DNA from: Cyanophora paradoxa CCMP329
Taxonomy: Eukaryota; Plantae; Glaucophyta
Length of the DNA: 64,000 nt
Reading direction: 5' to 3'
NCBI GenBank assembly: GCA_004431415.1
Contig: QPMI01000392.1
Location: 1-64,000, forward strand
Below are positions 6,345 to 56,960 of the stretch, piece after piece. Below the pieces are notes generated by a model. It saw only the letters and a program-made list of their open reading frames with translations. It searched no databases and was not told where the DNA came from. Position numbers and translations under genes: made by a program. Numbering within the stretch: position 1 is the first letter of the stretch; each line of letters starts with the position of its first letter.

Positions 6345-7310
6345 GACCCGCCCGGTCGATTCCGGCTACGGCGCCTGTACCCCTGGGGCGGCCCGCGAGC
6401 CCGCGGTGAGACGAGGCGAGCGGCGGGGGGCGGGGCGAGCGGGGGTACGGACGGACCGGGCCCGCCGCTTATGGCCCGCCTGGTCGATTCCGGCTACGGC
6501 GCCTGTACCCCTGGGCGGGCCGGCAAGCACGTCGGTGAGACGAGGCGAGCGGCCAGAGGGTGCAGGGGGAGCGGGGGTACGGACGAACCGGGCCCCGCCG
6601 CTTATCGCCCGCCTGGTCGATTCCGGCTACGGCGCCTGTACCCCTGGGCCGGCCCGCGAGCCCTCGGTGAGACGAGGCGAGCGGCCAGAGGGTGCAGGGT
6701 ACGGACGAACCGGGCCCCGCCGCTTATGGCCCGCCTGGTCGATTCCGGCTACGGCGCCTGTACCCCTGGGCGGGCCCGTGAGCTCTTCGGTGAGACGCGG
6801 CGAGCGGCCAGAGGGTGCGGGGGAAGCAGGGGTACGGACGGACCGAGCCCCGTCGCTTATGGCCCGCCTGGTCGATTCCGGCTACGGCGCCTGTACCCCT
6901 GGGCGGACCGCGAGCTCTCGATGAGACGAGGCGAGCGGCCAGAGGGTGCGGGGGAAGCGGGGGTACGGAGGAACCGAGCCCCGCCGCTTATCGCCCGCCT
7001 GGTCGATTCCGGCTACGGCGCCTGTACCCCTGGGCGGGCCCGCGAGCTCTCGATGAGACGAGGCGACCGGCCAGAGGGTGCGGGGAAGCGGGGGTACGGA
7101 CGAACCGAGCCCCGCCGCTTATCGCCCGCCTGGTCGATTCCGGCTACGGCACCTGTACCCCTGGGCGGGCCCGCGAGCCCTCGGTGAGACGAGGCGAGCG
7201 GCCAGAGAGTGCGGGGGAAGCGGGGGTACGGACGAACCGAGCCCCGCCGCTTATGGCCCGCCTGGTCGATTCCGGCTACGGCGCCTGTACCCCTGGGCGG
7301 GCCCGCGAGC
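6345..7310 (+). repeat. Hub 1, type-A tandem array (8 units, ~130 bp; core CCTGGTCGATTCCGGCTACGGCGCCTGTACCCC)
   Basis: Cores at ~6352, 6479, 6612, 6734, 6867, 6998, 7129, 7261. Confidence 0.95.
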
Positions 7311-7429
7311 ACGTCGGTGAGACGAGGCGGCGGGTGCGCGAACTCTCTGTGAGATGGGGGCGAGCGGTCGGAGGGTGCGGAAGCGCGCGAAGGGGTGGGT
7401 CGAGAGGAAAGGCAAACGACAGCGTTAGC

Positions 7430-8195
7430 AGGGGTACACGCACCGTAGCCGGAATCGACCAGGCCGCCCCTACTGCGGGCCAGCGCCGCGGGCCGGACGG
7501 GGCGCCGAGTGAGCGAGGGCGGGGCGCGGAGAGGGCGCGTTGTGGGGTACACACGCCGTAGCCGGAATCGACCAGGCCGCCCCTACTGCGAGCCTGCTGC
7601 TGCGGGTCGAACGGGGCGCAGGGTGAGCGAGGGCGGGGCCACGCGAGGGGTCGAGAAAGGGGGGCACACACGCCGTAGCCGGAATCGACCAGGCCGCCCC
7701 TACTGAGAGCCAGCTGCTGCGGGCCGGACGGGCCGCCGAGTGAGCGAGGGCGGGGGCGGAGAAGGCGCGTTGGGGGTACACACGCCGTTGCCGGAATCGA
7801 CCAGGCCGCCCCTACTGAGAGCCAGCTGCGCGGGCCGTACGGGCCGCCGAGTGTGCGGGGGCGGGGGGCGCTCGAAGGGGGCGAGAGGCCAAGGGGGGTA
7901 CACACGCCGTTGCCGGAATCGACCAGGCCGCCCCTACTGCGAGCCTGCTGCTTCGGGCCGTACGGGTCGTCGAGTGAGCGAGGGAGGGGCGCTCGAAGGG
8001 GGCGAGAGACCTAGGGGGTACACACAGCGTAGCCGGAATCGACCAGGCCGCCCCTACTGAGAGCCTGCTGCTGCGGGCCGTACGGGCCGCCGAGTGAGCG
8101 AGGGCGGGGGCGCTCGAGGGGAGGGGGGGGGGGGCGAGAGACCTAGGGGGGTACACACAGCGTAGCCGGAATCGACCAGGCCGCCCCTACTGCGG
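7430..8195 (-). repeat. Hub 1, type-B tandem array (7 units, ~120 bp; CAGTAGGGGCGGCCTGGTCGATTCCGGCTACGGCGTGTGTACCCC)
   Basis: Reverse-complement cores at ~7448, 7561, 7678, 7790, 7912, 8032, 8165; degenerate copy ~8296. Confidence 0.95.
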
Positions 8196-9328
8196 GCCAG
8201 CGCTGCGATCGCTCTGGGTGAGCGATGGCGGGCGCGGACAAGGCGAGGAGCGCGGGCCGGTGGGGGAGGGAAAAAGAGCGGGGTGGACCGGCCGTACCCG
8301 GAATCGGCCCGATCGCTCTTCCGCGCCCCCGCGTGGGGTACGAGGCTCGTACGCGCCCGCCCAGCAGCGCTAGCGCCCCTCGAGCGCCGAGCCTGCCGAG
8401 GCGATGAGCACCGCACCGAGCTCGAGAGCTCGACGGGAAGAAAGGGAACCGGTCGAGGGGGTGCGCGGGCGCACTCCCCACGAGGCCCCGGGCGCTCTTG
8501 GCTCGCCCAGCGGGCCGGCTGCCGAGGGCTTGGCGTGGGCGGGGAAGAGGATCCAGAGGGGGCGCTCGAAGCGGGCGAGGCGCCGGGCCGCGCTCACCCT
8601 CGCGATGGACGCCCCGCCGCCGCTTGCGCCGCCGCCGCCGCAGGGCATCGGCCGGCTCCCCGTGCCGACCGACGTCCCGGCGCCCGGCCTCGCCAGGCCG
8701 CTGCCGCGCGTCCCGCCACCCGAGCAGGCGGCCCCGAAGCGCACCAAGCGATCCGCTCTGGGCGACGGGGCGCCGCGGCCCGGCGCCGAGGCCTGGGCCG
8801 GTTGAGCGCCGGCCGGCTCCGGCGGGCGGGCCCGGCCGGGGCGCGCGGGCGCGCGTAGGTATGAGCCGCTTTGGATTCGAACTGTACGCAGGAAGAGCTC
8901 GCGGGCGCGCAGAAACTTAATCCGGCGTCGGCGCCCTGCGGGGCGAGGGACAGAGGCACGTCAGCCGCAGCGGACTCCGGGATCGAAAGTTGCATGCGGG
9001 CCGCGGCCGCCGAGCAGGCTAGGACGAAAGGGAGGCGCACGAGCCGCGCGGGTAGCTGGAACCGCCCGAGGCGTGGCTCTCTCGGGAGAGCAGAAGGGAG
9101 GCTCGCGGCTCGGGCGCGACAGAGCGCCGCACGAGCAGCTCGTGGTCCGCTGCTCTCTGTGCGTGGGATCGCTGTGGTTTTCTCTGTGTCTGTTTTTTTG
9201 CGACCAAGTGTACCCCGCAGATTCGCCGCAGCAGTGTTGCAAGCTGCAGCCAGCTGCCGCCGCAGCCCCCCGCGCGCGTTCTCGCAACGCTGGCCAGCAG
9301 AGCCTTCATGCGCATGCGCAGCTCTTTC

Positions 9329-9492
9329 GGGGGGCCAGTTTGCAACGTTCTGATGGTGCACCGGCGCACCATCGAATTTCAACAGCACGCCGCGTCGCGC
9401 GCGTGCCCTCTGGCGCAGTCCATAGCGCCTGTAGGGCTCGAAAATCGCGTCGCCGCCCGCCCAGCTCGTGCTCGGGTCGAGCGCAGTCGACG
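9329..9492 (+). other. Conserved palindromic element P, copy 1 (palindrome 9349-9376)
   Basis: GGGGGCCAGTTTGCAACGTTCTGATGGTGCACCGGCGCACCATCGAATTTCAACAGCACGCC; near-identical to the copies at 31815 and 44934 (reverse). Confidence 0.9.
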
Positions 9493-9964
9493 AGGCCACG
9501 GCCACTGCTAGCTATTGATCTCCAGCGGCCCTCTGACGCTTCTACGACCCGACAACCCCACGGATGCGTGTCCCGTCGCACAGGCTGGGCGTCACGGCGA
9601 CCCTCGGCGGCCGCGGCGCTCGTGCGGCTACGCAGATGCAGCCGGCGCCCAAGGCGCACTTGTGGAGGTTCTCCGAGATTTAAACGCGCGCGCCGCAGCG
9701 CGGCCGGCCCCGGCGCGCCGCCGGCGCGCATCCGGCCATCGATCGGGCACGCCGCGTGCGGTGCGCAGCGTGCGGACCCGCGCGCTTCTCCGCCACACCC
9801 TCGCGAAGCGCTACGCGGGGTGGAGTGCGGGCGCGCCGGTTCCAGCGAGCAAGACGATCACCGAGTCGGCCGGCACCGCGCTCGGTCCGCCCCTCGCGGC
9901 TGCAGCGAGCCCCGCCTCCTTTTCCTCGGCCCGCTGCCACGCTCCGCGCGCCGCGGCGGCCCCT

Positions 9965-10425
9965 CGTGCGCCCCCGCCTTCGCTCACTCGGCAGCCCGTA
10001 CGGCCCGCGGCAGCTGGCTCGCAGTAGGGGCGGCCTGGTCGATTCCGGCTACGGTGTGTGTACCCCCCTAGGCCTCTCGCCCCCTTCGAGCGCCCCCGCC
10101 CCCCGCTCACTCGGCGGCCCGTGCGGCCCGCAGCAGCTGGCTCGCAGTAGGGGCGGCCTGGTCGATTCCGGCTACGGTGTGTGTACCCCTTAGGCCTCTC
10201 GCCCCCCTTCGAGCGCCCCCGCCCTCGCCCACTCGGCGGCCCGTACGGACCTGCAGCGCTGGCCCGCAGTAGGGGCGGCCTGGTCGATTCCGGCTACGGT
10301 GTGTGTACCCCCCAACGCGCCCTCTCCGCGCCCCGCCCTCGCTCACTCGGCGGCCCGTACAGATCGCAGCGCTGGCCCGCAGTAGGGGCGGTCTGGTCGA
10401 TTCCGGCTACGGCGTGTGTACCCCC
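9965..10425 (+). repeat. Hub 2, type-B tandem array (4 units)
   Basis: Cores at ~10035, 10157, 10279, 10392. Confidence 0.95.
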
Positions 10426-10499
10426 CTGCTGACGCTGTCATTTGCCTTTCCTCTCCACCCACCCCTTCGCGCGCTTCCGCACCCTCCGGCCGCGTGCCA

Positions 10500-11090
10500 C
10501 CGTCTCACCGAGAGCTCCCGGTCCGCCCAGGGGTACAGGCGCCGTAGCCGGAATCGACCAGGCGGGCCATAAGCGGCGGGGCTCGGTTCGTCCGTACCCC
10601 CGCTCGTCCCGCCCCCCCGCCGCTCGCCTCGTCTTACGGACGGGGCGAGCGGGCCGTCCAGGGGTACAGGCGCCGTAGCCGGAATCGACCAGGCGGGCCA
10701 TAAGCGGCGGGGCTCGGTCCGTCCGTACCCCCTCTTCCCCCGCCCCCCGCCGCTCGTCCCCGTCTCATCGAGAGCTCGTGGGCCCGCCCAGGGGTACAGG
10801 CGCCGTAGCCGGAATCGACCAGGCGGGCCATAAGCGGCGGGCTCGGTCCGTCCGTACCCCCGCTCTCCCCGCGCCCCCGCCGCCCGCCTCGTCTCACCGA
10901 GAGCTCTCGGACCCGTCCAGGGGTACGGGCACCGTAGCCGGAATCGACCAGGCGGGCGATAAGCGGCGGGGCTCGGTTCGTCCGTACCCCCGCTCTCCCT
11001 GCCCCCCTGCCGATCGCCTCGTCTCACCGAGAGCTCTCGGGCCCGTCCAGGGGCACCGGCGCCGTTGCCGGAATCGACCAGGCGGGCTAT
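10500..11090 (-). repeat. Hub 2, type-A tandem array (5 units)
   Basis: Reverse cores at ~10547, 10678, 10807, 10936, 11067; the B/A junction 10426-10500 is the reverse complement of the hub 1 junction 7370-7430. Confidence 0.95.
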
Positions 11091-11336
11091 CTGGCAGCAG
11101 GGCCCGGCCCGCACCATCCCCCTCGAGCTCCCCCCCCCCCCCCCCCTTCCGCTATGGTCACACGCCCGGCCCGGTTGTGATTCTGATCGCGATCAACTCA
11201 AACCCGCGCCCTGAACGCCAACTGTACATCTACCTAGCTGCCTAGCTGCCTGTCTACCTGTCCAAGCACGTGCATGGGCCTTGGCATGGGCGGGCCCCCG
11301 ATAGAGGGCGAGCCCGTCCGACCCCGTCGGGCGGCC

Positions 11337-13076: not shown

Positions 13077-13915
13077 CCCGGCGGAGCTCCCATCAACCAA
13101 CGGCGTATATACGTACCCGGCGCGAGCGAAAAAACTCAATCAAAGCCACCAACCGTCATCAACTTGCCATGCAACTCGAGCTCGCAATTACGTATACGCA
13201 CCGGTACGCAGGTGCGCCCGTCCGGTCCGGCCGCATAAGAGCCCGCATTGCCAGCGCGGCTCAGACAGCTATCAGGCTAGTTTAGCCTAGCTAGCTTTCT
13301 ACAGTCTTTCACGTTTCCGCGACTCCGGCCGCGGGCCCTAGCTATAGGCCTCGGCAGCTGCAGCTTCTTCGGCACGGTCGGATCGTCGGACCGTACCGTG
13401 CCGCCCATGGCCAGCCGTGGCCGCGGGAGCGGGATCCGCCCACGGTTTATCTCTCTGGAGACCGGAATGGAGAGCATTTCGACCGAGTCTAGCGTGCGCG
13501 GCCGCCCCCCAGCCGCGTCCAGACACTCGCCCGCTGCCGACCGCGGCCTGCGTGGCCCGCGTGGGGCCCGGGGTCACGACCGCAACCCATGAGTCGAGAA
13601 TTCTACTAGCTATAGGCTAAAGCCGTCCGATCGTACGCGTGCCGGCCGCGGGCGCCCGGCCGCGGGCGTGCTGGCAACGTTGACGGGCCGGGGCCACCGT
13701 GGCACGCGCTGGCGTCTTCATGCTAATTATATAAGCAGCAGCGCTATATGCATACACCATACGCATAATACAGCTAGCACGACCGCGGGCTCGATCCTCT
13801 TGTCGGCGCGCCCATATACATGGCCATGACCAGCGACATCATCATGATCATGATCATTATAATTAGCGATATCGATATCGATGCCCGGGCCCGGGCAGAG
13901 CATGATCACTGAGTC

Positions 13916-15339
13916 ATGACCAGCGCACGAACCCGGGACGCCGCGCCCGCAGCCGACCTCGGGCTCGGGCTCAAACTCACGTACGACTCGCGCGCGCAGG
14001 CAAGCTTAAGGCCAATGTCCGCCGCGCGGGAGTACGAGCCGGCCGCGGGTGGCCTTGATCGTGATCGTGATCGTGATCATGGTCATGATCATGAGCTCGA
14101 GCCTGCCCCGGCAGGCGCCGCGGCCACGCGCACGGGAGTCGGCGCCGGCGTCGACGTCGGCCACGCGTACGGGAGCCCGAGCGATCGCGATCGCGAGCTG
14201 GATCTCTGCCGGGGCCCTCTGGGACCCCTGGCCATCTTTGTGGACGGTAACCCGTCTTCCCAAGAGGCTGCTCGCGAGGCCTTCTTGGAGAGGTCCGCGA
14301 GCCCGCCTCGTTTTATTCATATTTAAACTCTGCCTCGTGACCTTGCGCTATAGAACTTGACTGACCTTCTTCTTGCATGCCCGCGGCCAGGACGACGCTG
14401 CTGAAGCAGAACGAGATGCAGTGGCCCGCGGACCAGCCCGTACCCTCCAGCATCTGGCCCCTCGGCACGGACCCGGGCCTGGCCGCGGACCTGCTGCTCT
14501 GGAGGTGCCCCCGCGAGTCCGACGAGAACCTCCAGCGCGAGGTGGATACCATCTACGCGCTGTGCACCAAATCGCTCGGCGATCCGACGGTGCCAGAGGG
14601 GACCGTCGGAATCAACCTCGGCGTGCTCGCCGGCTTGGACATGGAGCTCGCTTTCGTCATCGAGAGCTCGCCCCTCGCCGCCGCCGCCTTTGCCGGCGAC
14701 GAGGCGCGTGTCGGCGAGCTCCTTGCCGAGCTCAAAGGCGGAGGCGGCCGCGGGGTCGAAGCCGGCGCCGACGGCCGCGCTGAGCTCGAACTCGAGACCG
14801 CAGACGGCGCCGGTGGCGGCGGGGACGCGGCGGCGTCGCCGCATTGCGCCACTAAGCCCAGCCTCGATCTCGCCCTCGCCGCCGCTGCCGCGGGGGGGCG
14901 GTCGGCCATCGTCGCCCGCCTCCTGGACATGGGGGCGGACCCCAACGCGGGGCTGGGTCGGGCCCTCCTCCTCGCAGTGTTTGGCGGATCCTACGCTCGC
15001 GGCCGCAGGTGGGATGCGAACGTTGGCAAGTCTCTGTACGGCCGCATCGGCGACTACCTGCAGACCGTGGAGGCGCTCGTACAGCGCGGTTCCTGTCCCC
15101 TCTACCGCGGGGGCCTCTCCGTCGCCCTTGTCACGGGATACAGAGCCCGCACAGACTTTAAACGGGATGACCGCTGGGGCATGAACTCCGACGTTATCGA
15201 TCTGAAAGATGTTGAGCACCTCGTCTCCACCCTCGTTGGCGCCGCGTCTCGCTGTGCATGCTCCAGCGAGCGCAAGCGTGCGCTCGGCCCCGATCCTGGT
15301 GCGCATGCGAGTCTTGCGCGCACCTTCACTTGCAACTAG
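13916..15339 (+). CDS. Ankyrin-repeat-containing protein, exons 13916-14292 and 14391-15339 (may continue downstream)
   Basis: Intron 14293-14390 (GT, CTGAC branch, pyrimidine tract, CAG) joins the two ORFs in frame; LALAAAAAGGRSAIVARLLDMGADPN is an ankyrin-type repeat. Confidence 0.65.
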
Positions 15340-23684: not shown

Positions 23685-23734
23685 TTCGGGCGGTTCCAAG
23701 GGAATGGCAAATCTGATAGTCCGGCCAACATAAT

Positions 23735-31814: not shown

Positions 31815-31978
31815 GGGGGCCAGTTTGCAACGTTTCGATGGTGCACCGGCGCACCATCGAATTTCAACAGCACGCCGCGCCGCGCGAGTGCCCTCCGGCG
31901 CCTTCTGTAGCCCCCGGAGAGCTCGGAAATCGCTTCGGCGCCCGCCCAGCTCGTGCTGGCCCCGAGCGCAGCTGACGA
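31815..31978 (+). other. Conserved palindromic element P, copy 2 (palindrome 31834-31861)
   Basis: TTCGATGGTGC-ACCGGC-GCACCATCGAA with perfect 11-bp arms; preceded by a T-run and GGGGGCC. Confidence 0.9.
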
Positions 31979-32529: not shown

Positions 32530-32980
32530 GCCCGCCCTCGCCCGCCCGGCAGCCCGTACGGCTCGCGGCGCCGGCTCGCAGCAGGGGCAGCCCGGTCGAT
32601 TCCTTCAACAGCACGTGTGGGCCCCCATCCTTGTTTCCCCCCTCGCGCACCCCGCCCTCGCTCGCCCGGCCCCCCGTACGGCTCTCAGCGCTGGCTCGTA
32701 GTAGGGGCGGCCTGGTCGATTCCGGCAACGGCACGTGTACCCCCTCTCTCGCCCCCCTCGCGCCCCCCCGCCCTCGCTCACCCAGGCCCCCCGTACGGCT
32801 CGCAGCGCCGGCTCGCAGTAGGGGGCGGCCTGGTCGATTCCGGCAACGGTACGTGTACCCCCTCGCTCGTCCCCCTCGCGTCCCCCCGCCCTCGCTCACC
32901 CGGGCCCCCCGTACGGCTCGCAGCGCCGGCTCGCAGTAGGGGCGGCCCGGTCGATTCCGGCAACGGCACGTGTACCCCCG
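32530..32980 (+). repeat. Hub 3, type-B tandem array (4 units, CAACGG variant)
   Basis: Cores at ~32592 (degenerate), 32711, 32829, 32947. Confidence 0.9.
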
Positions 32981-33061
32981 CTATCTCGCCTTTCTCACTT
33001 GTCGCTCATTGTCGCCGCGTCCCATCCTCTTGATCTTGTGGATTGACCAAGCGTAGCTTTC

Positions 33062-33835
33062 GGCCAGGCGGGCTATCAGGGGCGGGGCCCGGTCCGTCCG
33101 TACCCCCGCTCTCCCCCTCCCCCCACCTGCGCCCCGCGCCCCGCGTCTCGTCTCACAGAGCGCCCGCAGGACTCGGCCCCGCGGCCGTCGAGGGGGTACA
33201 GGCGCCGTAGCCGGAATCGACCCGGCGGGCTATCAGGGGCGGGGCCCGGTCCGTCCGTACCCCCCGCTCCCCCCTCCCCGGACCTGCGCCGCGCGCCCCG
33301 CGTCTCGTCTCACAGAGCGCCCGCAGGACTCGGCCCCGCCGCGAGGGTACAGGCCGTGCCGATCGACCGGGGCTATCAGGCGGGCCGGTCGTCCGTACCC
33401 GCTCCCCCACCATGCCCGCGCCCGCGTCGTCCACAGAGCGCCGCAGATCGCCGCGGCTCGAGGGTACAGGCCTAGCGATCGACCGGCGGCTATCAGGGGC
33501 GGGGCCCGGTCCGTCCGTACCCCCGCTCTCCCCCTCCCCCACCTGCGCCGCGCGCCCCGCGTCTCGTCTCACAGAGCGCCCGCAGGACTCGGCCCCGCGG
33601 CCGTCGAGGGGGTACAGGCGCCGTAGCCGGAATCGACCCGGCGGGCTATCAGGGGCGGGGCCCGGTCCGTCCGTACCCCCCGCTCCCCCCCTCCCCGGAC
33701 CTGCGCCGCGCGCCCCGCGTCTCGTCTCACAGAGCGCCCGCAGGACTCGGCCCCGCGGCCGTCGAGGGGGTACAGGCGCCGTAGCCGGAATCGACCAGGC
33801 GGGCTATCAAGGGCGGGGCCCGGTCCGTCCGTCCC
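33062..33835 (-). repeat. Hub 3, type-A tandem array (~5 units plus a partial unit, ~160-bp variant)
   Basis: Reverse cores at ~33210, 33355 and 33475 (both degraded), 33626, 33785. Confidence 0.9.
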
Positions 33836-37724: not shown

Positions 37725-37757
<33 letters not shown>

Positions 37758-44769: not shown

Positions 44770-44934
44770 TGCACGCGCACTACGGCGCACGCGAGCGGGG
44801 CGCGCGGGCACCGACGCGAATCTAGGGCTCTACAAGGGCTAGAGAAGGCTCCGGAGGGCCTTTGCGCGGCGTGGCGTGCTGTTGAAATTCGATGGTGCGC
44901 CGGTGCACCATCGAAACGTTGCAAACTGGCCCCC
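44770..44934 (-). other. Conserved palindromic element P, copy 3 (palindrome 44888-44915), inverted relative to copies 1 and 2
   Basis: Reverse complement of the ~60-bp P core, identical to copy 2 over the core. Confidence 0.9.
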
Positions 44935-45879: not shown

Positions 45880-47305
45880 CGCAGCGCCGGCTCGCAGAAG
45901 GGGCGGCCTGGTCGATTCCGGCTACGGCGTGTGCATCCCCCCCCCAAGCCTCCCGCCCCTCTCCCGCCCCCCCGCCCTCGCTCACCCTGCCCCCCGTGCG
46001 GCCGGCAGCAGCAGGCTCGCGGTAGGGGCGGGCTGGTCGATTCCGGCTACGGCGTGTGTACCCCCCTAAGCCGCCCCCCGCCCCTCCCTTGCCCCCCGCC
46101 CTCGCTCACCCTGCCCCCCCGTGCGGCCGGCAGCAGCTGGCTCGCAGTAGGGGCGGCCTGGTCGATTCCGGCTACGGCGTGTGTACCCCCACTGAGCCTC
46201 CCGTCCCTCCCTCGCCCCCCCGCCCTCGCTCACCCTGCCCCCCGTGCGGCCGGCAGCAGCAGGCTCGCGGTAGGGGCGGCCTGGTCGATTCCGGCTACGG
46301 CGTGTGTACCCCCCTAAGCCGCCCCCCGCCCCTCCCTTGCCCCCCCGCCCTCGCTCACCCTGCCCCCCGTGCGGCCGGCAGCAGCAGGCTCGCGGTAGGG
46401 GCGGGCTGGTCGATTCCGGCTACGGCGTGTGTACCCCCCTAAGCCGCCCCCCGCCCCTCCCTTGCCCCCCGCCCTCGCTCACCCTGCCCCCCGTGCGGCC
46501 GGCAGCAGCTGGCTCGCAGTAGGGGCGGCCTGGTCGATTCCGGCTACGGCGTGTGTACCCCCACTGAGCCTCCCGTCCCTCCCTCGCCCCCCCGCCCTCG
46601 CTCACCCTGCCCCCCGTGCGGCCCGCGGCAGCTGGCTCGCGGTAGGGGCGGGCTGGTCGATTCCGGCTACGGCGTGTGTACCCCCCACTGAGCCTCCCGC
46701 CCCTCCCTTGCCCCCCCGCCCTCGCTCACCCTGCCCCCCGTGCGGCCCGCGGCAGCTGGCTCGCGGTAGGGGCGGGCTGGTCGATTCCGGCTACGGCGTG
46801 TGTACCCCCCACTGAGCCTCCCGCCCCTCCCTTGCCCCCCCGCCCTCGCTCACCCTGCCCCCCGTGCGGCCCGCGGCAGCTGGCTCGCAGTAGGGGCGGG
46901 CTGGTCGATTCCGGCTACGGCGTGTGTACCCCCCACTGAGCCTCCCGCCCCTCCCTTGCCCCCCCGCCCTCGCTCACCCTGTCCCCCGTGCGGCCGGCAG
47001 CAGCTGGCTCGCAGTAGGGGCGGGCTGGTCGATTCCGGCTACGGCGTGTGTACCCCCCATTGAGCCTCCCGTCCCTCCCTTGCCCCCCCGCCCTCGCTCA
47101 CCCTGCCCCCCGTGCGGCCGGCAGCAGCTGGCTCGCAGTAGGGGCGGGCTGGTCGATTCCGGCTACGGCGTGTGTACCCCCCATTGAGCCTCCCGTCCCT
47201 CCCTTGCCCCCCCGCCCTCGCTCACCCTGCCCCCCGTGCGGCCGGCAGCAGCTGGCTCGCAGTAGGGGCGGGCTGGTCGATTCCGGCTACGGCGTGTGTA
47301 CCCCT
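45880..47305 (+). repeat. Hub 4, type-B tandem array (12 units, ~124 bp)
   Basis: Cores every ~124 bp from ~45907 to ~47272. Confidence 0.95.
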
Positions 47306-47369
47306 TAGGCCTCTCGCCCCCCCCTCGTGCACCCCCGCCCTCGCACGCCCTCGCTGCCTCTTCTCTTGA

Positions 47370-49495
47370 GGGTCTCACCGAAGAGCCCCCGGGCCCGCCC
47401 AGGGGTACAGGCGCCGTAGCCGGAATCGACCAGGCGGGCTATCAGGGGGCGAGGCTCGGTCCGCCCGTACCCCCCACTCTGCCCGCTCCCCGCGACCGCC
47501 GCTCGCCCCGTCTCACCGAAGAGCCCCCGGGCCCGCCCAGGGGTACAGACGCCGTAGCCGGAATCGACCAGGCGGGCTATCAGGGGCGAGGCTCGGTCCG
47601 TCCGTACCCCCCACTCTGCCCGCTCCCGCCGCTCGTTCCGTCTCGCCGAAGAGCTCACGGGCCCGCCCAGGGGTACAGGCGCCGTAGCCGGAATCGACCA
47701 GGCGGGCTATCAGGGGCGAGGCTCGGTCCGTCCGTACCCCCCACTCCGCCCGCTCCCGCCGCTCGCCCCGTCTCAACCGAAGAGCTCACGGGCTTGCCCA
47801 GGGGTACAGGCGCCGTAGCCGGAATCGACCAGGCGGGCCATCAGGGGGCGAGGCTCGGTCCGGCCGCACCCCCCCACTCTGCCCGCCCCCCGCCGCTCGC
47901 CCCGTCTCACCGAAGAACCCCCGGGCCCGCCCAGGGGTACAGGCGCCGTAGCCGGAATCGACCAGGCGGGCTATCAGGGGGCGAGGCTCGGTCCGCCCGT
48001 ACCCCCCACTCTGCCCGCTCCCCGCGACCGCCGCTCGCCCCGTCTCACCGAAGAGCCCCCGGGCCCGCCCAGGGGTACAGGCGCCGTAGCCGGAATCGAC
48101 CAGGCGGGCCATCAGGGGCGAGGCTCGGTCCGTCTGTACCCCCCACTCTGCCCACTCCCGCCGCTCGTTCCGTCTCGCCGAAGAGCTCACGGGCCCGCCC
48201 AGGGGTACAGGCGCCGTAGCCGGAATCGACCAGGCGGGCTATCAGGGGCGAGGCTCGGTCCGTCCGTACCCCCCACTCTGCCCGCTCCCCGCGGCCGCCG
48301 CTCGCCCCGTCTCGCCGACGAGCCCACGGGCTTGCCCAGGGGTACAGGCGCCGTAGCCGGAATCGACCAGGCGGGCTATCAGGGGGCGAGGCTCGGTCCG
48401 TCCGTACCCCCCACTCTGCCCGCTCCCCGCGACCGCCGCTCGCCCCGTCTCACCGAAGAGCCCTCGGGCCCGCCCAGGGGTACAGGCGCCGTAGCCGGAA
48501 TCGACCAGGCGGGCCATCAGGGGCGAGGCTCGGTCCGTCCGTACCCCCCACTCTGCCCGCTCCCGCCGCTCGTTCCGTCTCGCCGAAGAGCTCACGGGCC
48601 CGCCCAGGGGTACAGGCGCCGTAGCCGGAATCGACCAGGCGGGCCATAAGCGGCGGGCCCGGTTCGTCCGTACCCCCGCTCTCCCAGCACCCTCTGGCCG
48701 CTCGCCGCGTCTCACCGAGGGCTCGCGGGCCCGCCCAGGGGTACAGGCGCCGTAGCCGGAATCGACCAGGCGGGCTATCAGGGGCGAGGCTCGGTCCGTC
48801 CGTACCCCCCACTCTGCCCGCTCCCCGCGGCCGCCGCTCGCCCCGTCTCACCGAAGAGCCCCCGGGCCTGCCCAGGGGTACAGGCGCCGTAGCCGGAATC
48901 AACCAGGCGGGCTATCAGGGGGCGAGGCTCGGTCCGGCCGTACCCCCCACTCTGCCCGCTCCCCGCCGCTCGCCCCGTCTCACCAAAGAGCTCACGGGCC
49001 CGCCCAGGGGTACAGGCACCGTAGCCGGAATCGACCAGGCGGGCTATCAGGGGGCGAGGCTCGGTCCGCCCGTACCCCCCACTCTGCCCGCTCCCCGCCG
49101 CTCGCCCCGTCTCACCGAAGAGCCCCCGGGCCTGCCCAGGGGTACAGGCGCCGTAGCCGGAATCGACCAGGCGGGCCATAAGCGGCGGGCCCGGTCCGTC
49201 CGTACCCCCCACTCTGCCCGCTCCCCGCGTCCGCAAACTGCCGGATGTCCTCCGCCCCGTCTCACCGAAGAACCCCCGGGCCTGCCCAGGGGTACAGGCG
49301 CCGTAGCCGGAATCGACCAGGCGGGCCATAAGCGGCGGGCCCGGTCCGTCCGTACCCCCCACTCTGCCCGCTCCCCGCGTCCGCAGCTCGCCCTGTCTCA
49401 CCGAAGAGCCCCCGGGCCCCGCCCAGGGTTACAGGCGCCGTAGCCGGAATCGACCAGGCGGGCTTCGAGGGGCGAGGCCCGGCCCCCTTCCGTAC
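47370..49495 (-). repeat. Hub 4, type-A tandem array (16 units, ~130-138 bp)
   Basis: Reverse cores from ~47419 to ~49443. Confidence 0.95.
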
Positions 49496-49735
49496 CCCCC
49501 GCCGCCCCCGCTCCCCAAGCATATCCTTCCTCTCTCTTTCCACCCCTTTCGTCCCCCTGCCCCCCTCCCCCCCCTCTTTCCCTCCCCCCCCCCTCCCCCT
49601 ATCTCCATCCCCCCCCCCCCCCCCCTCGTCTCGATCCGGCCCTCGGCCGCGAGGGCGCGCGGCCCGGTTCAATTTCTTGTAACACGCATCCCACAAGCTC
49701 GCTTGCCTACCCCCCCGCGCTCTCCGGGCCGGGGC

Positions 49736-50841
49736 CTACTGCTTCCCGCCGACCCCCATCGCGGCAAAGAGGGCGAGGGGCACGCCGAGGCCGCGGTGCT
49801 GCCCGCCGCGCGGCCCGATGCGCTCGGGGCGCATCGCGAGGGCGGGCGCCTTGTTCTCGTCGACCCAGCGGACGCAGAGGTCGCGCCCCGAGGCCCGCCC
49901 CGCCCGCTGCACCGCGACGCCGTTGGGCCCCGGGAGGCGCTCGCCCGCGCCAAAGATCCGCTCGGGGAAAAAGACCAGGTGCGCCGGCGAGCGCGGGTGC
50001 GGCACGCAGCGCTCCGGGTCCGAGCGGGACTCGTGCAGGCGGCGGAGGAACCAGGCGACGGCCTCGGCCGAGACGCGCGGGTCGCCCGTCGCCGGCGGCG
50101 CCCCGCCGGCGGCCCGCCTCCCGTCGGCCGCGTCGCGCAGCGCCCTGGCCTCTTGCGCCTCGCGCGCCTCGGAGGCGAGGCGGGCGGCAAGGGCGTCCAG
50201 GCGGGCGTCGGCGGCGAACCCGCCGCGCACGACGGCGGCGAGCTCGGCCGGCCCGAGCCCCGCGACGGCCCCGGCGAGCCCCTCGACGGCCTCGGCCCCC
50301 TCGGCCGGGGCGGAGCCCCCGCGGCGGCCGCGGCGGCCAGCAGGCGGCGCGCCCGCTCCCCCAGGTACGCCTCCGGGTGGAGCCGCAGGATCCCCGTCCG
50401 CTCCGGGCGGTCCCCCCACGCGAGGCGGCAGGAGAGGGCGACGAGGGCGCACAGGTTGGCGAGGTCGGCCGCCTCGCGGGCCTGGGCGCGGCCCCAGCGG
50501 TGCCCGCCCTCGGGCGAGTACCCCTCGCCGTACGCCGCCCAGAGGGGCGCGGGGTCGGCCCCGCCGGCGGCCGCCGCCGCCTCCGAGTCGTCCCAGCAGG
50601 CGTCGCTGGGCGCGAGCTCCACCTTGGACGCCCAGCGGGCCCCGCAGGCGATGCGCGCCTCGGCGTAGACGCGCTCGTCGCGGCTGCGCATCGTGGTCCG
50701 CCCCCGCCGGGCCCCGCCCTCGCCCGCACCGCCGGCGTCTTGAAGGCGCGCACGCGGGCCCCAGGGCGGCGGCGGCGTGGGCCACGAGCCCCGCGGCGAG
50801 GCGGGCGGCGAGGCGCCCGAGGTCCCCGCGCTCCGCCCCGC

Positions 50842-50873
<32 letters not shown>

Positions 50874-53800
50874 CGGTCGGCCGGCCGCGCCGCCGGCTCC
50901 AGCGCGAGCAGCTCGGCCGCCTCGACGAGCGGCGCCCGCCGGTGCGCGGCAAAGAGGCGCCCCTCGCGCGCCGCCTCGCCAACCCGCCGCGCCGCCGCCG
51001 CGTCGGGGTCCGGGAGGGGCGAGAGGATGGCCGACGGGGTCACGGGCGGCTCGCAGCCGGCGGCGAGGAGGAGGAGGGCGGCGCTGCGGCGCGAGTGGGC
51101 CTCGTCGGGGGCGTCGGGGAGGATGTTGCGCCCGCCATCCTGGCCCCGCACGTGCGCCACCGTCTCCATGTGCGCCAGAAAGGCGGCCCCGTAGCCGCGC
51201 AGCGCCGCGTGGTGCGCGTCCCGGGCCCGCAGGGCGAGGCGGAGCTCGGCGGGCCCGACCTCCTCCTCCCGCAGGCGGTAGTCGGCGGCGACGCGGCCCA
51301 GGCGGTACCCGCGCCGCTCCGCGTCGGCGACGCCGCCGGCGGCGTCGTCCACGTCGCCCCCGAGGCCGTGCATCGCCTCTTGCACGCGCCCCTCGCGCCC
51401 CGGCGCGAGGGGCGGCGCCGCGGCGTGCGGGAGGACGATCTCGATCTCGAGGGCCCGCTCCGCGGCCCACTTGGCCTCGGCCTGCAGCGCCTCGTCCCAC
51501 GCGGGCTGCGCGCCGCCCGGGAGGAAGACGCCGCGGGCGCCGGCGGCGAGCATGCGCATGTGGACGGCCACCAGCGGGTCGGCCCGCGAGGCCCGCAGCA
51601 CCGCCAGCTTGTGCGCCTGCACGCGCAGCGCCGCCCGCATCTCGTGCGAGGCGAGGGCGCCGGCGAGCCCGCGGCGGCCCCAGGTCTCCTCCAGGGCCCG
51701 CTCCCGCGCCGCCAGGATCGCCTCCGGGTCCGTCTCCCCGGGGTCGCCGCCCTCGCCCCCGCGCCCCTCTTCCTCGGCCGCCTTTTCGTCCTCCTCCTGA
51801 CCGCCGCCGCCGTCGCCGACGCAGAGGATGACGCGGTCGCTGCGGATGCAGCGGACGCGGCCGGCGAGCTGCCAGAGCTGCACGACGCTCCCCGTGCGGC
51901 CCGACTCGGCGATGACGAGGACGTCGTACGGGTGCTCGGGGTCCGTGTAGTCGGCCCCCTGGTGGATGGCGTAGTTGTACGCAAAGAGCCGCACCTCGCG
52001 GCAGACGTGCCCCTTGTCCAGCGCCCGCGCCCGCTCCTCGGCGCGGGCGTCGGCGTAGACGTAGAGGTCGCGCTCGCCGCCGCCGCGCAGGCCCGGGTGG
52101 CCGCGGACGGCGCCCATCGTGCGGAAGAGGGTGCGGCGGTCCGAGCTGGCGACGGCGACGCGGCGGCCGCCGAGGAGGAGCGCCGCCACGATGTCCCCCG
52201 CCATCCCCAGGGGGTACGCGAGCGCCTCGCGGCGCGCGGCGGGGCCCCGCGGGGCGGGGCGCAGGGTGTAGGAGACGACGCGGGCGGCGCCGGGCGCGGC
52301 CGGCTCCGGGTGGCGCAGGGCGAGGTAGTAGTCGACGTCGTGCTGGCAGAGGTCGGCGTCGGAGACGAGGACGATGGAGGCCTCGCGCAGGAGGCGCCCC
52401 AGGCGCGCCAGGGCCTGGTTCTGGCGCGCCTCCGGCGCCAGCGTCTCCGAGAGGACGGCCGTCACGATCGCCTTGGCCCCCTCGTCGAGGATCACGACGG
52501 GAAAGACCCCGTCGAAGCGCCGGACCGACTCGACGGTGCTGAGGAGCGCGGCGGCGTCGGGCGCCCCGTCCCGCACGTCGCGGTACGAGACCCACCGCGC
52601 CACCGTCGCCCACTCGGGGTCCCGCTGAATCTCGGGCGCGTGCAGCCGCCCCGCGACGAGGTAGAGGATGGAGCGCTGCCCCTCGGCGAAGCGGACGCCG
52701 AAGCGGGCCGGGTCGGCCACGATCGCGCGGGAGATCGAGACGCAGGCGCGCGTCTTGCCGTCCCCCATGCCCCCCCGCAGGAAGAGGGTGCGCGCCTGCC
52801 CCTCGGGGCCCTCGAGCTCGCGGGCGATGCGCGCCCCGTCGACGTAGCGCCGGTTCGGCCCCTCGCCCCCGGCGTCGTCGTCGATCCCCAGCCACGCCGC
52901 CTCCAGGTCGGGCCGCCCCGCCGGCGGCGCCAGCGGCCTCCCGAGGCTCGGGAGCGGGACGCGGGCCCAGAGGGCCGCCTGCTCGGGCGCCACCTCCAGG
53001 GGGGTCGGCCCGTCCGGGGAGCCGGCGGGGGCCGCCAGCCGCTCCTCGAGGTGCGCGGCCAGCCCCGCCACGAACTTCTGGCGCGCCGCCGACATGGTCG
53101 GCTGGGCCGCCCGCGGCCCCGTCGCCCCCAGCAGGCCCGTCGACGCGGGGAGGAGGCCGGCGGCGACGGCGGCGCCGACGGTGGCGCGGTGCACGGCCCG
53201 CTGCACGGCCGAGATCGACGAGGTCCAGGCGCGCCCCAGGCGGACCTCGGGCGCCGCCTTGGGGCCCGGGCCCGGGCCCGAGCCGGCGGCTCCGGCGGCG
53301 GCCGCCGCCTCCGCCGCCTTCGCCTCCTCGCAGGCGTCGCAGGCGTGCGCGCGGGCCGTCCCCTCGAGGGCGTCGACGCGCACGAGGCCGCGGCGGTCGC
53401 CGCAGAGGGCGCAGGGGGCCTTGACGCGGTACTCGACGGTGTCGGTGCCCAGGTCGGCGCGGGCCGGGTACGGCGCCGCCGCCGGGTCCGGGAGCGCGAG
53501 GGGCGGGAGCTCGCGGGCGGCGCGGGCGGCGGAGATCGCGGCGTTGGCCGCCTCGGAGAGGAGCGGGAGCCAGCGGCCGAGGGCCTCGGCGGCCTCGGGC
53601 GGCGGCGGGGCGGGGAGCCCCTCGGCAAAGGCGAGGGCGCCCCGCAGCGGCCGCTCGGCGCACGCGAGGCTGAAGCAGTGGGCGGAGCCCGCCAGCACGC
53701 CCCACGCCCCAAACGGGGCGACGGCGAGGCGCGTGTTCTGGCTGCTGTGGACGCGCCCGTGGAGGCAGGGCCCGCCGGCGGGGCGCGAGACGTAGGCCTC

Positions 53801-55219
53801 GACCTCACCGCCCTGTCGCTCCCACTCCCGGCCGCTCTCGGCGGGGTAGACGGCGCGGGCGAGGCGGAGGCGGTCCGGCGGCACCTCGGGCCCGCTCGGA
53901 TCGACCGCGGCCGCCGCGGCGGCGGCCGGGTCGGTCGCGCCCGGCGCGCCGCGGCGGGGGCGCTTGGGCCCGCGGCCGCGCGGCCGACCGCCCTCTTCGC
54001 GATCGCCGGCGCCCTCTGCCCTCCGCTTGGGGGCGGCCCGGCGGGCGAGGTCGGCGCCGGCGGGGCGCGGGAGGGCCGGGAGGTCGAGGAAGACGGCCTC
54101 GGCGAGGGCGGAGCGGAGCCAGGCGTAGAAGTCGCGGTTCCAGGCGACGATGGCGGGGTCGGCCCGCGCCGTGCAGAGGTCGACGGCGTCGCCGCGGGCG
54201 GGATCGACGAGGGCGGCCCGGTCGGCGATCGCCACCGGGTAGCGCAGCGTCCAGCCGTGGTAGTGCGTGTCCTCCCGCATCCCGCAGTTCGGGTTCCACG
54301 TGCTCACGTCCACGGCCCCCGCCTCGAGCAGGGCGCCGGCGAGCGCGGGCCCGAGCTTGCGCTCCATCCAGGGCTTCACGACGGCCGCGAGGGCGTCGGC
54401 GCCGCGCCACGAGGACCGCCTCTTGTCGACCATGCCGGGCACGGCGCGCGTGCCGGCCGACCGCGAGGCCCGCTTCCAGTCGCCCGGGAAGCGGGCGCGG
54501 GCGCGGGCGAGCCTGAGCTCCCACTGGCGCAGGTCCTCGGCGTCGTAGAGGCGGGCGGCCTCGGAGCGGGCGATCAGCTCGCGCTCCATCACGACGACGT
54601 GGAACCCCTTGAGGCCGCTGAAGACGACGAGGGCGCGCAGGCCGGACGCCTCGCAGGCGGCGGCGAGGTCGTGGGCGAGGCGGGCGACGCGGGCCACGTC
54701 GGGGAGGCGGCGGCAGTACTCGCCCAGCGTGCGGGCCTCGGCCAGGACGCCGCAGAGGTACTCTTTCTTGCACTCGGCCCGCTGCGCGTCGCCCACCGCC
54801 CCCTCGCAGACCTCGGCCGGCACCTCGACGTGCACGTCGAGGTCAAAGGCGCCCAGAAAGGCGAGCTTGGCGGCGCGGCCGTCGCGCAGCCGGACGGCCG
54901 GCTGGAGGCAGACTTGGGCGACGTTGCGGGGGCGGGACGCCGACGGGGCGCCCTGCACGCCGGCGAGGGCGTCGAGGGGGACCCGCCGCCACGAGGTGCG
55001 GTAGATGGCGTCCCGGTGCGCCCCGGGGCGCCCGATCTTGACAAAGAGGGCGGCGCTGGCAGGGTCGACGTCCGAGGCGGGCGGCACCGAGGGCTGCGCG
55101 CGGGGGGGGGCGACGCCCGCCGGCGCCGCCGCCCCGTCCCTGGCGCGCTTCGGCGCGGGGACGGGCCCCGCGGCGCCCCTCGGCCCGGCGATGCAGAGCG
55201 GCCCCTCGGCAAGTTCCAT
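49736..55219 (-). CDS. AEP primase(-polymerase) / Zn finger / UL9-like SF2 origin-binding helicase fusion, ~1827 aa
   Basis: AEP motifs FDLDV and VFSGLKGFHV; UL52/PrimPol-type Zn finger CLHGRVHSSQN...HCFSLAC; second CALC..CDAC; helicase motifs LRGGMGDGKT, STVESVRR, VILDE, VSDAD, VASSD, QLAGRVR parallel herpes UL9 (RAPMGSGKT, QVESLHR, VLDE, MDAT, FSST, QSLGRVR). Confidence 0.9.
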
Positions 55220-55287
55220 TCCGTTCTCGCTTTTTCCCTGGCGCAGGCGAGGAATGGCGATCAACGCCCCTGCTCCCCGCGGGGCGG

Positions 55288-55497
55288 GCCCCTTTTCTTG
55301 GCGGAAACGAACGGGAATCCCGCGCCGCGGCCGGCCGTACCCCCGACCTCCGCGGCCGGTGCCGCTCCCCGCGCGATCCGAGCCGGCGGGGCGCGGCTCC
55401 CCGCCCGCCGCGTACCCCGGCGAGGTGCCCCGAGCCCCTCCCCTCCCCGCCCCCGTCCCCGCCCCGCACGCCCGCCGCGTCCGACCATAAAAGGGCG
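55288..55497. promoter_or_regulatory. Divergent promoter shared by the primase-helicase and RING genes
   Basis: GGGAATCCC 55313-55321; AAGAAAAGGG on the minus strand ~55290; CATAAAAGGG at ~55486-55495 on the plus strand. Confidence 0.6.
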
Positions 55498-55592
55498 CCC
55501 CTGGGCGGGGGGTAGACGAGGAAGAGCGAGGGGTGCGCGACCGCAGTACCCCGTCCGCTCGAACTCGGTCGACGCAGGGTTCTCCCTACCCC

Positions 55593-56267
55593 ATGAGCGC
55601 CCGCGGGCACCGGGCCACCCCGTACCCCAGGCGCTTCGGCGGGGAGCGGGACCCGCTCCGCGCGCGGAGCGGGCACGGTCTGCACGAGTACGACGCGGCG
55701 CGCGGCTCCATCCGCGTGCCTCTGCCCGTGGCGCGCGGCAAGTCCTGGGTCGAGACCGAGGTCGTCGAGGCGCCGGCGGGGGGCGACCCGCGCACGGACC
55801 CCGCCGCCCTCGCCCGCTTCGTCTCCCTCGGCCACCTCGCCGCCCTCACCTGCTGGTGCATGCGGAACGCGTCGAGCGCCGAGCTGCCGGCCGGCGCGGC
55901 CGGCGCCGACGAGAGGGACCCGTGCGCGGTCTGCCTGGAGCCGCACGCGCGGCCCGTCCGCCTCGCCTGCAACCACGTCTTCTGCCTCCACTGCCTCGCC
56001 TCGCTGCCCCCCGCCGACTTTCGCTGCCCCCTCTGCCGCGCCGCCCCCGGCGCCGGCATCACCTTTCTCGCCGGCGAGCACGCGGCGCGGTGGCGGGCGG
56101 ACCCGCAGGGCTACGGGCGGCGCCTCGACGAGGGGGCGGCGGCGCTCCCCGCCTGGGCGCCGCAGGCGTTTCGCGATCGCTACCGCTCGGCCGCGTGGCT
56201 CGTCCCCCCCGAGCTGCACTCGGGCCCTCGCCCCCGGCCCGCCCCCGCGGCCGCTCACGATCAGTGA
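55593..56267 (+). CDS. C3HC4 RING-finger protein (putative E3 ubiquitin ligase), 224 aa
   Basis: CAVCLE...LACNHVFCLHCL...CPLCR. Confidence 0.9.
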   Translation: MSARGHRATPYPRRFGGERDPLRARSGHGLHEYDAARGSIRVPLPVARGKSWVETEVVEAPAGGDPRTDPAALARFVSLGHLAALTCWCMRNASSAELPAGAAGADERDPCAVCLEPHARPVRLACNHVFCLHCLASLPPADFRCPLCRAAPGAGITFLAGEHAARWRADPQGYGRRLDEGAAALPAWAPQAFRDRYRSAAWLVPPELHSGPRPRPAPAAAHDQ

Positions 56268-56319
56268 TCCTCCCATCTTCCCCCTTGCAATATTAATTGA
56301 TTGGAACGTGCATGTGCTC

Positions 56320-56670
56320 TCGGTGAGACGAGGCGAGGGCGCGGCAGGGGGCGGGGGGGGCGGGGGTACGGCCGAACCGAGCCCCGCCGCTTATGGCCCG
56401 CCTGGTCGATTCCGGCTACGGCGCCTGTACCCCTGCGCGGACCCGCGAGCTCGCGGTGAGACGAGGCGAGGGCGCGGCGGGGGGCGGGGGGGGCGGGGGT
56501 ACGGCCGAACCGAGCCCCGCCGCTTATGGCCCGCCTGGTCGATTCCGGCTACGGCGCCTGTACCCCTGGGCGGGCCCGTGAGCTCTTCGGTGAGACGAGG
56601 TGAGCGGCGGGGGGCGGGGCGAGCGGGGGGTACGGACGGACCGGGCCCACCGCTTATGGCCCGCCTGGGC
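56320..56670 (+). repeat. Hub 5, type-A array (2 full units plus 1 degenerate)
   Basis: Cores at 56401 and 56534, broken core ~56664. Confidence 0.9.
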
Positions 56671-56754
56671 AATTCCACCGATGTCCTGCGGGTCCTCGCT
56701 GAGAGGATGCGGGGGGCCAGGGGTAGTCGAAGAGGGATGGAAAAGGGCAGCGTT

Positions 56755-56960
56755 AGCAGGGGTACACACGCCGTAGCCGGAATCGACCAGGCCGCCCCTA
56801 CTGCGCGCCAGCTGCAGCGAGCCGAACGGGCCGCAGGGCGAGCGAGGGCGAGCGCGAGGGGCGTACGAGAATCGGAGAGGGCGCGATTGAGGGGTACACA
56901 CGCCGTAGCCGGAATCGACCAGGCCGCCCCTACTGCGAGCCAGATGCAGCGAGCCGTACG
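56755..56960 (-). repeat. Hub 5, type-B array (2 units)
   Basis: Reverse cores at ~56776 and 56908; junction CAGCGTTAGCAGGGGTACAC shared with hub 1. Confidence 0.9.

What the first reader, a model, noticed from the sequence alone, without database searches (positions are those of the whole stretch)
6345..56960. Five bipartite head-to-head repeat hubs: candidate origin/enhancer system paired with an encoded UL9-type initiator
Seen: two repeat families, A (~130 bp) and B (~120 bp), share a 20-nt core CTGGTCGATTCCGGCTACGG and a TGTACCCC tail but have different flanks. They never occur alone. At 6345-8195, 9965-11090, 32530-33835, 45880-49495 and 56320-56960 an A array and a B array converge across a short junction, with variable copy number (A/B 8/7, 5/4, ~5/4, 16/12, 2/2). 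The A side abuts a gene; in four of five hubs the B side faces the P palindrome. Cores are nearly invariant while inter-core sequence drifts. Known: herpes UL9 binds inverted boxes at oriS/oriL, and baculovirus homologous regions are dispersed repeat clusters acting as origins and enhancers. Inference: the hubs are iterated, oriented binding platforms for the primase-UL9 fusion encoded beside the largest hub. I do not know this fixed two-family convergent grammar from any described element.
Basis: partly seen in the sequence, partly recalled or inferred. Interest (0 to 1): 0.9.

Follow-up and report, generated by a model that had tools for sequence, protein, structure and literature searches.

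The report
Spliced micro-exon hairpin RNA arrays
The five repeat hubs in a virus-like island of an algal genome read as non-coding genes built from tiny repeated exons, one RNA contig fits exon-to-exon splicing, and the spliced RNA is predicted to fold into many copies of one 21-base-pair helix that would likely feed the host's small-RNA machinery rather than act as DNA replication origins.

Summary
The neighbouring gene is a true primase plus UL9-type helicase. It belongs to a family of 11 gene models labelled Cyanophora paradoxa.

The origin reading is poorly supported. Junctions are about 70% GC with no AT-rich spacer, and only UL9's helicase half matches.

On one strand, each hub reads as (B exon, 40 nt)n then (A exon, 55 nt)m, separated by host-sized spacers of 67-119 nt. 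Of 54 spacers, 44 start GYnnG and end AG. One contig from run X20 matches, in length, ends and mismatches, what head-to-tail spliced hub-4 A exons would give. None of 32 genomic copies fits. Spliced B and A exons are predicted to pair into long rods of repeated 19-21 bp helices. Spliced antisense RNA also covers the helicase gene.

Best reading: an intron-rich hairpin RNA family, likely a small-RNA precursor. Not shown: B-to-A splicing, small RNAs, or a target.

The parts
6328..8200 (-). Hub 1: 7 B units (8200-7444) then 8 A units (7292 to about 6328); predicted spliced hairpin RNA on the minus strand; last A unit has no donor in register
10014..11105 (+). Hub 2: 4 B units (10014-10411), 119-nt junction intron, 5 A units (10531 to about 11105); last A unit has no donor in register
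32571..33822 (+). Hub 3: 4 B units and 3 intact A units plus degenerate ones; A acceptors lost in register (GAGG); 0 of 12 B x A core pairs perfect; likely decaying
45887..49483 (+). Hub 4: 12 B units (45887-47291), 111-nt junction intron, 16 A units (47403-49483); its commonest 55-nt A exon reproduces RNA contig 21 of run X20
56378..56943 (-). Hub 5: 2 B units (56943-56772), a partial A unit, 2 A units (56565-56378); converges on the 3' end of the RING gene
9335..9395 (+). P element copy 1 (about 60 nt nearly invariant, with an 11-bp hairpin), between hubs 1 and 2; candidate promoter element (inferred)
31820..31880 (+). P element copy 2, about 0.73 kb upstream of hub 3
44870..44930 (-). P element copy 3, about 1.0 kb upstream of hub 4, opposite orientation
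49736..55219 (-). AEP primase plus UL9-type SF2 helicase gene. A DNA contig has one extra base after 50758, so the apparent frameshift in the window may be an assembly error or a sister-copy difference
52087..56258 (+). Spliced RNA antisense to the primase-helicase gene, running into the RING gene; GT..AG introns at 52583-52645 (run X20) and 55425-55515 (run X16)
55593..56267 (+). RING-finger gene; syntenic with the helicase gene on two sister contigs

Best explanation
Each hub is likely a non-coding gene whose transcript is spliced from tandem 40-nt B exons and 55-nt A exons into an RNA predicted to fold into a rod of repeated 19-21 bp helices, which would be cut by host Dicer into many copies of one small RNA. 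Shown: the exon/intron-like layout on one strand; one RNA contig that fits A-to-A splicing; complementarity of the B and A cores; spliced antisense RNA over the helicase gene. Inferred: B exons are spliced into the same RNA as A exons; transcription runs from the P or B side to the A side; Dicer processes the rod; copy number sets the dose. The core stays fixed across 61 units while introns drift, so the small RNA most likely acts in trans on a fixed target outside this window, such as a host mRNA or a related element. Self-silencing of the hubs is the second guess. Hub 4 may read through as the antisense RNA that would hold the replicase gene down.
For: Splice signals: 44 of 54 spacers start GYnnG and end AG, 37 of 54 also have a CTNAY branch-like site, and lengths are 67-119 nt. 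The host mean intron is 86 bp (PMC6704402, passages). A units: AG 29 of 32, GT 31 of 32. B units: GC or GT donor 27 of 29, +5G and +6T 29 of 29. An intron-like stretch exists in A only on the antisense reading (shuffles 4.7%) and in B only on the sense reading (shuffles 1.0%), which is the same strand (one unit each, criteria set after seeing the data). Polarity: the last A unit lacks a donor in 3 of 5 hubs and the first B unit lacks AG in register in 4 of 5. RNA: X20 record 21 is 85 nt, aligns at 56377-56433 over its bases 29-85 with 4 mismatches. Tandem-spliced copies of the commonest 55-nt hub-4 exon give exactly these values, and 0 of 32 genomic 85-mers do. X20 is RNA-derived: it skips a 63-nt GT..AG intron that DNA run X1 reads through. 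Spliced hubs 1, 2 and 5 fold at z -13 to -15 with B paired to A. The host has Dicer, two Argonaute loci, four RdRPs and mainly 21-nt exonic small RNAs (PMC3700990, parts 1-3 of 4).
Against: Direct splicing evidence is one contig in one run, read from coordinates and not from letters. An intron-less tandem copy elsewhere in the genome could give the same contig. The two B records (22, 23) end at the predicted exon end but do not discriminate: 1 of 35 simulated sets reproduces record 23 under either a 40-nt or a 42-nt exon, and none reproduces record 22. No B-to-A junction was seen. Only 19 of 29 B units have AG in register and 22 of 29 donors are GC. The strong folding z follows automatically from an inverted repeat. 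Pairing outside the core is no better than shuffled (fraction 0.26-0.64). There are no compensatory changes between A and B cores, and hub 3 has 0 of 12 perfect pairs. No small RNA and no target were found: the best non-hub matches have 5 mismatches in 21.
Confidence: 0.5

Rival explanations
1. The hubs are DNA binding platforms (origins or enhancers) for the primase-UL9 protein or another element-encoded factor, and the splicing is incidental read-through.
For: The largest hub abuts a real AEP-UL9 gene. Cores are inverted across a junction and nearly invariant. GTACGG and GTACCC flank the core in the same orientation in both families. Baculovirus hr elements are dispersed repeat origins and enhancers (recalled).
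Against: No AT-rich spacer. UL9's DNA-binding domain was not matched. Conservation follows exon limits and splice sites, not only the core. The RNA contig fits exon joining.
Confidence: 0.17
2. The hubs are spliced non-coding RNAs that act as long structured RNA (a decoy for Dicer, Argonaute or dsRNA sensors, or a promoter-proximal leader for antisense read-through), with no sequence-specific small RNA.
For: The same splicing and folding evidence. No target was found in the window. Spliced antisense RNA lies just downstream of hub 4.
Against: A decoy would not need one invariant 21-nt sequence in 61 units. No contig bridges hub 4 to the antisense RNA; the nearest starts at 49718.
Confidence: 0.18
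3. The hubs are neutral minisatellites, made by tandem duplication of an exon-intron block and spread by recent copying inside a decaying mobile element; transcription and splicing have no function.
For: Copy number varies widely, hub 3 is decaying, and there is no covariation. The host splices even antisense read-through. The gene block is duplicated on sister contigs.
Against: Exons are 0.92-0.93 identical between hubs while intron middles are 0.70. The B-then-A order and terminal-exon polarity recur across the five hubs.
Confidence: 0.12
4. B arrays encode a 14-residue repeat peptide through 42-nt exons.
For: A second donor two bases downstream exists in many B copies and would give an open 42-nt unit. 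The simulation cannot separate 40 from 42 nt.
Against: Hub 3 lacks that donor, a 41-nt variant exists (a one-base insertion also appears in three runs), and joined A exons close the reading frames.
Confidence: 0.03

Closest known systems
Drosophila hpRNAs (hp-CG4068 tandem cluster, hp-tHMG, hp-Nmy/Tmy), PMC10317233 (passages)
   Same: Spliced non-coding fold-back transcripts, tandem copies with fast-changing copy number, engaged in conflicts with selfish elements.
   Different: There each repeat is its own hairpin, or the arms are long gene fragments. Here one arm is n copies of a 40-nt exon and the other m copies of a 55-nt exon, each separated by an intron, sharing one 21-nt helix. Dicer dependence and targets are not shown here.
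Herpes simplex oriS/oriL with UL9 (PMC12543377, passages)
   Same: Inverted boxes near a UL9-type helicase gene.
   Different: No AT-rich spacer, no box similarity, the DNA-binding domain was not detected, and there are 4-28 cores per hub, not three boxes.
AEP-UL9 primase-helicases of mimivirus R8, ASFV pF1055L, some mriyaviruses and SmDNAV/'Ariadnavirales' (10.1101/2024.02.29.582850 and 10.64898/2026.08.29.747986, passages)
   Same: Same domain order, AEP then UL9-like SF2. A weak TFIIB-like gene is nearby (Pfam E 0.18), and ariadnaviruses also keep TFIIB.
   Different: No capsid, packaging ATPase, VLTF, DNA polymerase or integrase was detected in the window. Of the 13 hits, 9 are from the same alga.
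Giant endogenous viral elements reported in C. paradoxa (PMC12344493, passages and one section)
   Same: Same host; a cluster of mostly intron-poor, virus-like genes.
   Different: Whether this locus is among those reported could not be established (contig names absent from the one supplement held). No repeat hubs or hairpin RNAs appear in the parts read.
EBV BamHI W repeats and the primate C19MC miRNA cluster (recalled, not looked up)
   Same: Tandem exon-intron units on one long transcript, in one case viral.
   Different: W exons encode protein and C19MC miRNAs lie in the introns. Here the exons are conserved, non-coding, and pair between two oppositely oriented arrays.

Membership tests
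hpRNA / small-RNA precursor | Transcribed, spliced non-coding RNA | tested here: inconclusive
   One RNA contig fits A-to-A splicing exactly; B records do not discriminate; B-to-A junction not seen
hpRNA / small-RNA precursor | Intramolecular duplex of about 20 bp or more in the mature RNA | tested here: met
   Predicted rods with 19-21 bp helices; holds only if B and A share a transcript
hpRNA / small-RNA precursor | Dicer-dependent 20-24 nt RNAs from the duplex | not testable with these tools
   No small-RNA reads available; core 11-mers absent from 4 supplements of PMC3700990, which may not list sequences
hpRNA / small-RNA precursor | Complementary target | tested here: inconclusive
   None with 4 or fewer mismatches outside hubs in the window; host genome not held
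Herpes oriS/oriL-type origin | AT-rich spacer between inverted boxes | tested here: not met
   Junctions 70-73% GC in 5 of 5 hubs
Herpes oriS/oriL-type origin | Initiator with UL9 C-terminal DNA-binding domain (RVKNL) | tested here: inconclusive
   Profile matches only the helicase part; motif absent; the C-terminal region was not folded
Herpes oriS/oriL-type origin | Binding and origin activity | not testable with these tools
   Needs EMSA and nascent-strand mapping
AEP-UL9 primase-helicase (R8/pF1055L type) | N-terminal AEP fold | tested here: met
   Top 17 structural rows are AEP-type, best Z 8.5; top 10 Foldseek rows AEP though E above 0.1; Atlas 0.90 to AEP_C962R/UL52 clusters, a lead
AEP-UL9 primase-helicase (R8/pF1055L type) | UL9-like SF2 helicase downstream | tested here: met
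   E 1.5e-15 to HSV OBP (the profile included P0014, which itself hits PF02399 at 4.5e-23); Atlas 0.96
Nucleocytoviricota / mriyavirus / mirusvirus endogenous element | Capsid, packaging ATPase and other core genes | tested here: inconclusive
   None among 67 and 131 frames in Pfam or 19 proteins in PHROGs; only 64 kb seen and divergent genes can be missed
Known Rfam RNA family | Match at gathering score | tested here: not met
   0 matches in 64 kb
Baculovirus homologous region (features recalled) | Each unit an imperfect palindrome in AT-rich dispersed repeats | tested here: not met
   Hubs are 73-75% GC, and the inversion lies between the two arrays, not within a unit

The most novel reading that the evidence does not exclude
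A family of virus-like, primase-UL9-replicated elements in a glaucophyte carries its own small-RNA amplifiers. These are genes whose two hairpin arms are each an expandable array of micro-exons, so the host spliceosome assembles a rod with up to 12 copies of one Dicer-sized helix. The element tunes the dose by repeat number and uses read-through from the largest array to silence its own replicase.
Probability: 0.33. Interest if true: 0.87.

Novelty: new variant of a known kind. Interest (0 to 1): 0.7.

Why it matters
If true, this is a way to build a small-RNA precursor that I did not find described: splicing of two oppositely oriented micro-exon arrays, with dose set by copy number. It would sit in a virus-like element of an early-branching archaeplastid whose abundant exonic 21-nt RNAs have no known targets (PMC3700990). 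It names one 21-nt sequence and five loci that can be checked directly in existing small-RNA and stranded RNA data. It also points to an undescribed lineage-restricted family of primase-UL9 elements, and to antisense control of its replicase as a possible latency mechanism.

Tried and rejected
No whole genome is held, so genome-wide hub distribution and the ordinary-minisatellite test were not possible.

The core and the P element gave 0 exact matches in viral contigs, and the core 0 in metagenome contigs. The primase alignment found no relative in viral (49 pattern matches, 0 confirmed) or metagenome contigs (337, 0 confirmed). Co-occurrence of hubs with homologues elsewhere is therefore untested.

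No listed holder is on record as RNA; the RNA label of X16, X18 and X20 is the tool's guess, backed here by skipped GT..AG introns. Summed contig depths were not used as copy number or expression.

A single-sequence fold of the helicase was poor (pLDDT 39.7) and was not searched. A single-sequence PDB search found nothing. The viral fold library gave no E below 0.001.

A 16-of-21 match of the core to the duplicated 57373/59485 genes was rejected as chance: about 2 such sites are expected by my rough binomial estimate, not a call. Extended B-A pairing beyond the core was rejected. CpG depletion does not separate hubs from flanks (0.89-1.08 against 0.91-1.29). A suspected paralogy of the 3942 and 29586 ORFs was not supported. 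P0012 and P0013 (E above 1e-4) were treated as unreliable and left out of the alignment, as were P0002-P0004.

Literature searches for a description of these hubs or elements (listings only unless cited) found none. The supplement of PMC6704402 could not be read and bioRxiv supplements are closed; these may bear on whether the locus is already annotated. The splice junction letters inside a hub remain unseen.
Full report
Observation. The shared core occurs 62 times with up to 2 mismatches, against none in shuffles. All copies fall in five hubs with A and B cores in opposite orientation. Unit counts A/B are 8/7, 5/4, 3/4, 16/12 and 2/2, with extra degenerate A units in hubs 3 and 5. Tandem Repeats Finder gives periods of about 130 and 120. 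The P element occurs three times, 0.66-1.15 kb from the B side of hubs 1-4.

Host and context. No whole genome is held. The large protein's closest database entries carry Cyanophora paradoxa labels; P0001 is likely the gene model of this locus. Eleven related gene models on ten contigs of that species were found, from 99% down to about 33% identity. The RING gene recurs beside the helicase on two sister contigs, and an F-box gene on one. The window's clear genes are mostly intron-poor: primase-helicase, RING, two F-box-like genes, a weak TFIIB-like gene and orphans. Host genes average 9.2 introns of 86 bp (PMC6704402, passages). No capsid, polymerase or integrase was detected. I call it a multicopy virus-like island without assigning a virus family. 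Giant-virus insertions have been reported in this alga (PMC12344493, passages and section 9), but I could not link this locus to them.

The protein. A model of the N-terminal 511 residues (mean pLDDT 52) matches AEP primases in the top 17 rows (best Z 8.5), and weakly in Foldseek. A nine-sequence profile hits HSV origin-binding protein at E 1.5e-15, over the helicase part only. The same architecture is known from mimivirus R8, ASFV pF1055L, some mriyaviruses and SmDNAV (passages). In HSV, sequence-specific binding lies in the C-terminal domain with its RVKNL motif, and the boxes flank an AT-rich spacer (PMC12543377, passages). Here that domain is unmatched, the motif is absent and the junctions are 70-73% GC.

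What the hubs look like on one strand. Read so that B cores are sense and A cores antisense, each hub is a run of 40-nt B blocks then 54-57-nt A blocks, with spacers of 67-119 nt. Of 54 spacers, 44 begin GYnnG and end AG, and 37 also carry a CTNAY site upstream of the AG. A units have AG in 29 of 32 and GT in 31 of 32. B units have GC (22) or GT (5) in 27 of 29, +5G and +6T in 29 of 29, but AG in register in only 19 of 29. In a shuffle test on one unit of each family, the intron-like stretch exists only on this strand (4.7% and 1.0% of shuffles; criteria chosen after inspection). Conservation follows the exons and splice flanks: 0.92-0.93 between hubs against 0.70 in intron middles. The last A unit lacks a donor in 3 of 5 hubs and the first B unit lacks AG in 4 of 5, as terminal exons would. 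The GTACCCC tail also occurs just inside a predicted intron of the gene near 30637, so it may be an intronic motif.

RNA evidence. Contigs of four coded runs were laid on 49650-60400. Three runs are labelled RNA only by guess. X20 and X16 skip GT..AG segments at 52583-52645 and 55425-55515; DNA run X1 reads through the first in one contig. These introns lie on the plus strand, so there is a spliced RNA antisense to the primase-helicase gene; one X16 contig runs from 52087 to 56258, into the RING gene. On hub 5, X20 record 21 is 85 nt, aligns at 56377-56433 over bases 29-85, with 4 mismatches. A de Bruijn simulation (31-letter words) of head-to-tail copies of the commonest 55-nt hub-4 exon gives the same length, ends and mismatch count. 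None of 32 genomic 85-mers in that register does; 31 align further into the intron. Records 22 and 23 end at the predicted B exon end, and 0 of 29 genomic 69-mers reproduce record 23, but the simulation does not discriminate 40 from 42 nt and does not reproduce record 22. So A-to-A splicing rests on one contig, inferred from coordinates. B splicing is suggestive only, and no B-to-A junction has been seen.

Predicted product. Spliced hubs 1, 2 and 5 fold as rods with B exons paired to A exons (z -13 to -15). That score is expected of any inverted repeat. Only the core helix is robust: pairing beyond it is no better than shuffled. Perfect 21-bp B x A pairs number 35 of 56, 12 of 20, 0 of 12, 60 of 192 and 4 of 4 in hubs 1-5; most hub-4 exceptions differ only at position 2. 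There are no compensatory changes. Joined A exons close the reading frames, and Rfam has no match. The host encodes Dicer, Argonaute and four RdRP homologues and makes mostly 21-nt exonic small RNAs with no targets found (PMC3700990, parts 1-3 of 4). No target lies in the window.

Mechanism and odds. Best reading (0.5): intron-rich hairpin genes giving many copies of one small RNA, likely acting in trans, with possible read-through from hub 4 as antisense control of the replicase. I put splicing of A arrays at about 0.85 and a shared B-A transcript at about 0.65 (judgement). Rivals: structured decoy or leader RNA (0.18), DNA origin or enhancer (0.17), neutral satellite (0.12), repeat peptide (0.03). 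An RNA role and a DNA role are not exclusive.

Comparison and novelty. It works like the Drosophila hpRNAs, which are spliced, tandem and variable in copy number (PMC10317233, passages). Membership is unproven without small-RNA data. The architecture, with two arms made of oppositely oriented micro-exon arrays, was not found in my searches. An earlier AI note describes a tandem intron-plus-hairpin-exon block in another genome without splicing evidence; it is a lead, not support. Verdict: new variant of a known kind, interest 0.7.

Noticed in passing
window 34299, 39592, 39616, 41350, 42048, 42061, 43007, 43051, 55313, 57195, 57214, 59096, 59307, 59326, 62077, 63625, 63644: A palindromic GGGA(A/T)TCCC motif occurs at 17 non-hub sites, all in the right half of the window and mostly just upstream of ORFs (about 1.6 expected per 8-mer). 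Candidate element-specific promoter motif.
   Followed up: partly
   Followed up: partly
window 9335-9395, 31820-31880, 44870-44930: The P element keeps about 60 nt nearly invariant, including an 11-bp hairpin, while its flanks diverge; two copies lie inside unrelated ORFs. It is a better single-site origin or promoter candidate than the hubs.
   Followed up: partly
window 57180-58303 and 59292-60454: Tandem duplication (95.7%) of an orphan gene of about 205 aa; both copies are covered by RNA-run contigs.
   Followed up: no
window 60920-61954 and 62523-63692: Two related F-box-like genes in tandem (Pfam F-box E 7e-05 for the second).
   Followed up: no
window 36805-37797: Intronless TFIIB-like gene (Pfam E 0.18, below cut-off).
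   Followed up: partly
low-GC intergenic stretches, e.g. window 13100-14000, 44300-44600, 58000-58600: Strong excess of short palindromes such as TACGTA, TAGCTA, AGATCT and TGATCA.
   Followed up: no
window 50758: A DNA-run contig has one more base here than the window, at the point where the primase-helicase frame shifts.
   Followed up: no
window 8292 and 58272: Core-like sequences with nearby GTACGG and GTACCC outside the arrays; possibly relics of the ancestral unit.
   Followed up: no
proteins P0003 and P0007 (tig00000540), P0005, P0006, P0008-P0011: Several distant subfamilies (33-39% identity) of the same primase-helicase exist in this one species, two of them on one contig.
   Followed up: partly
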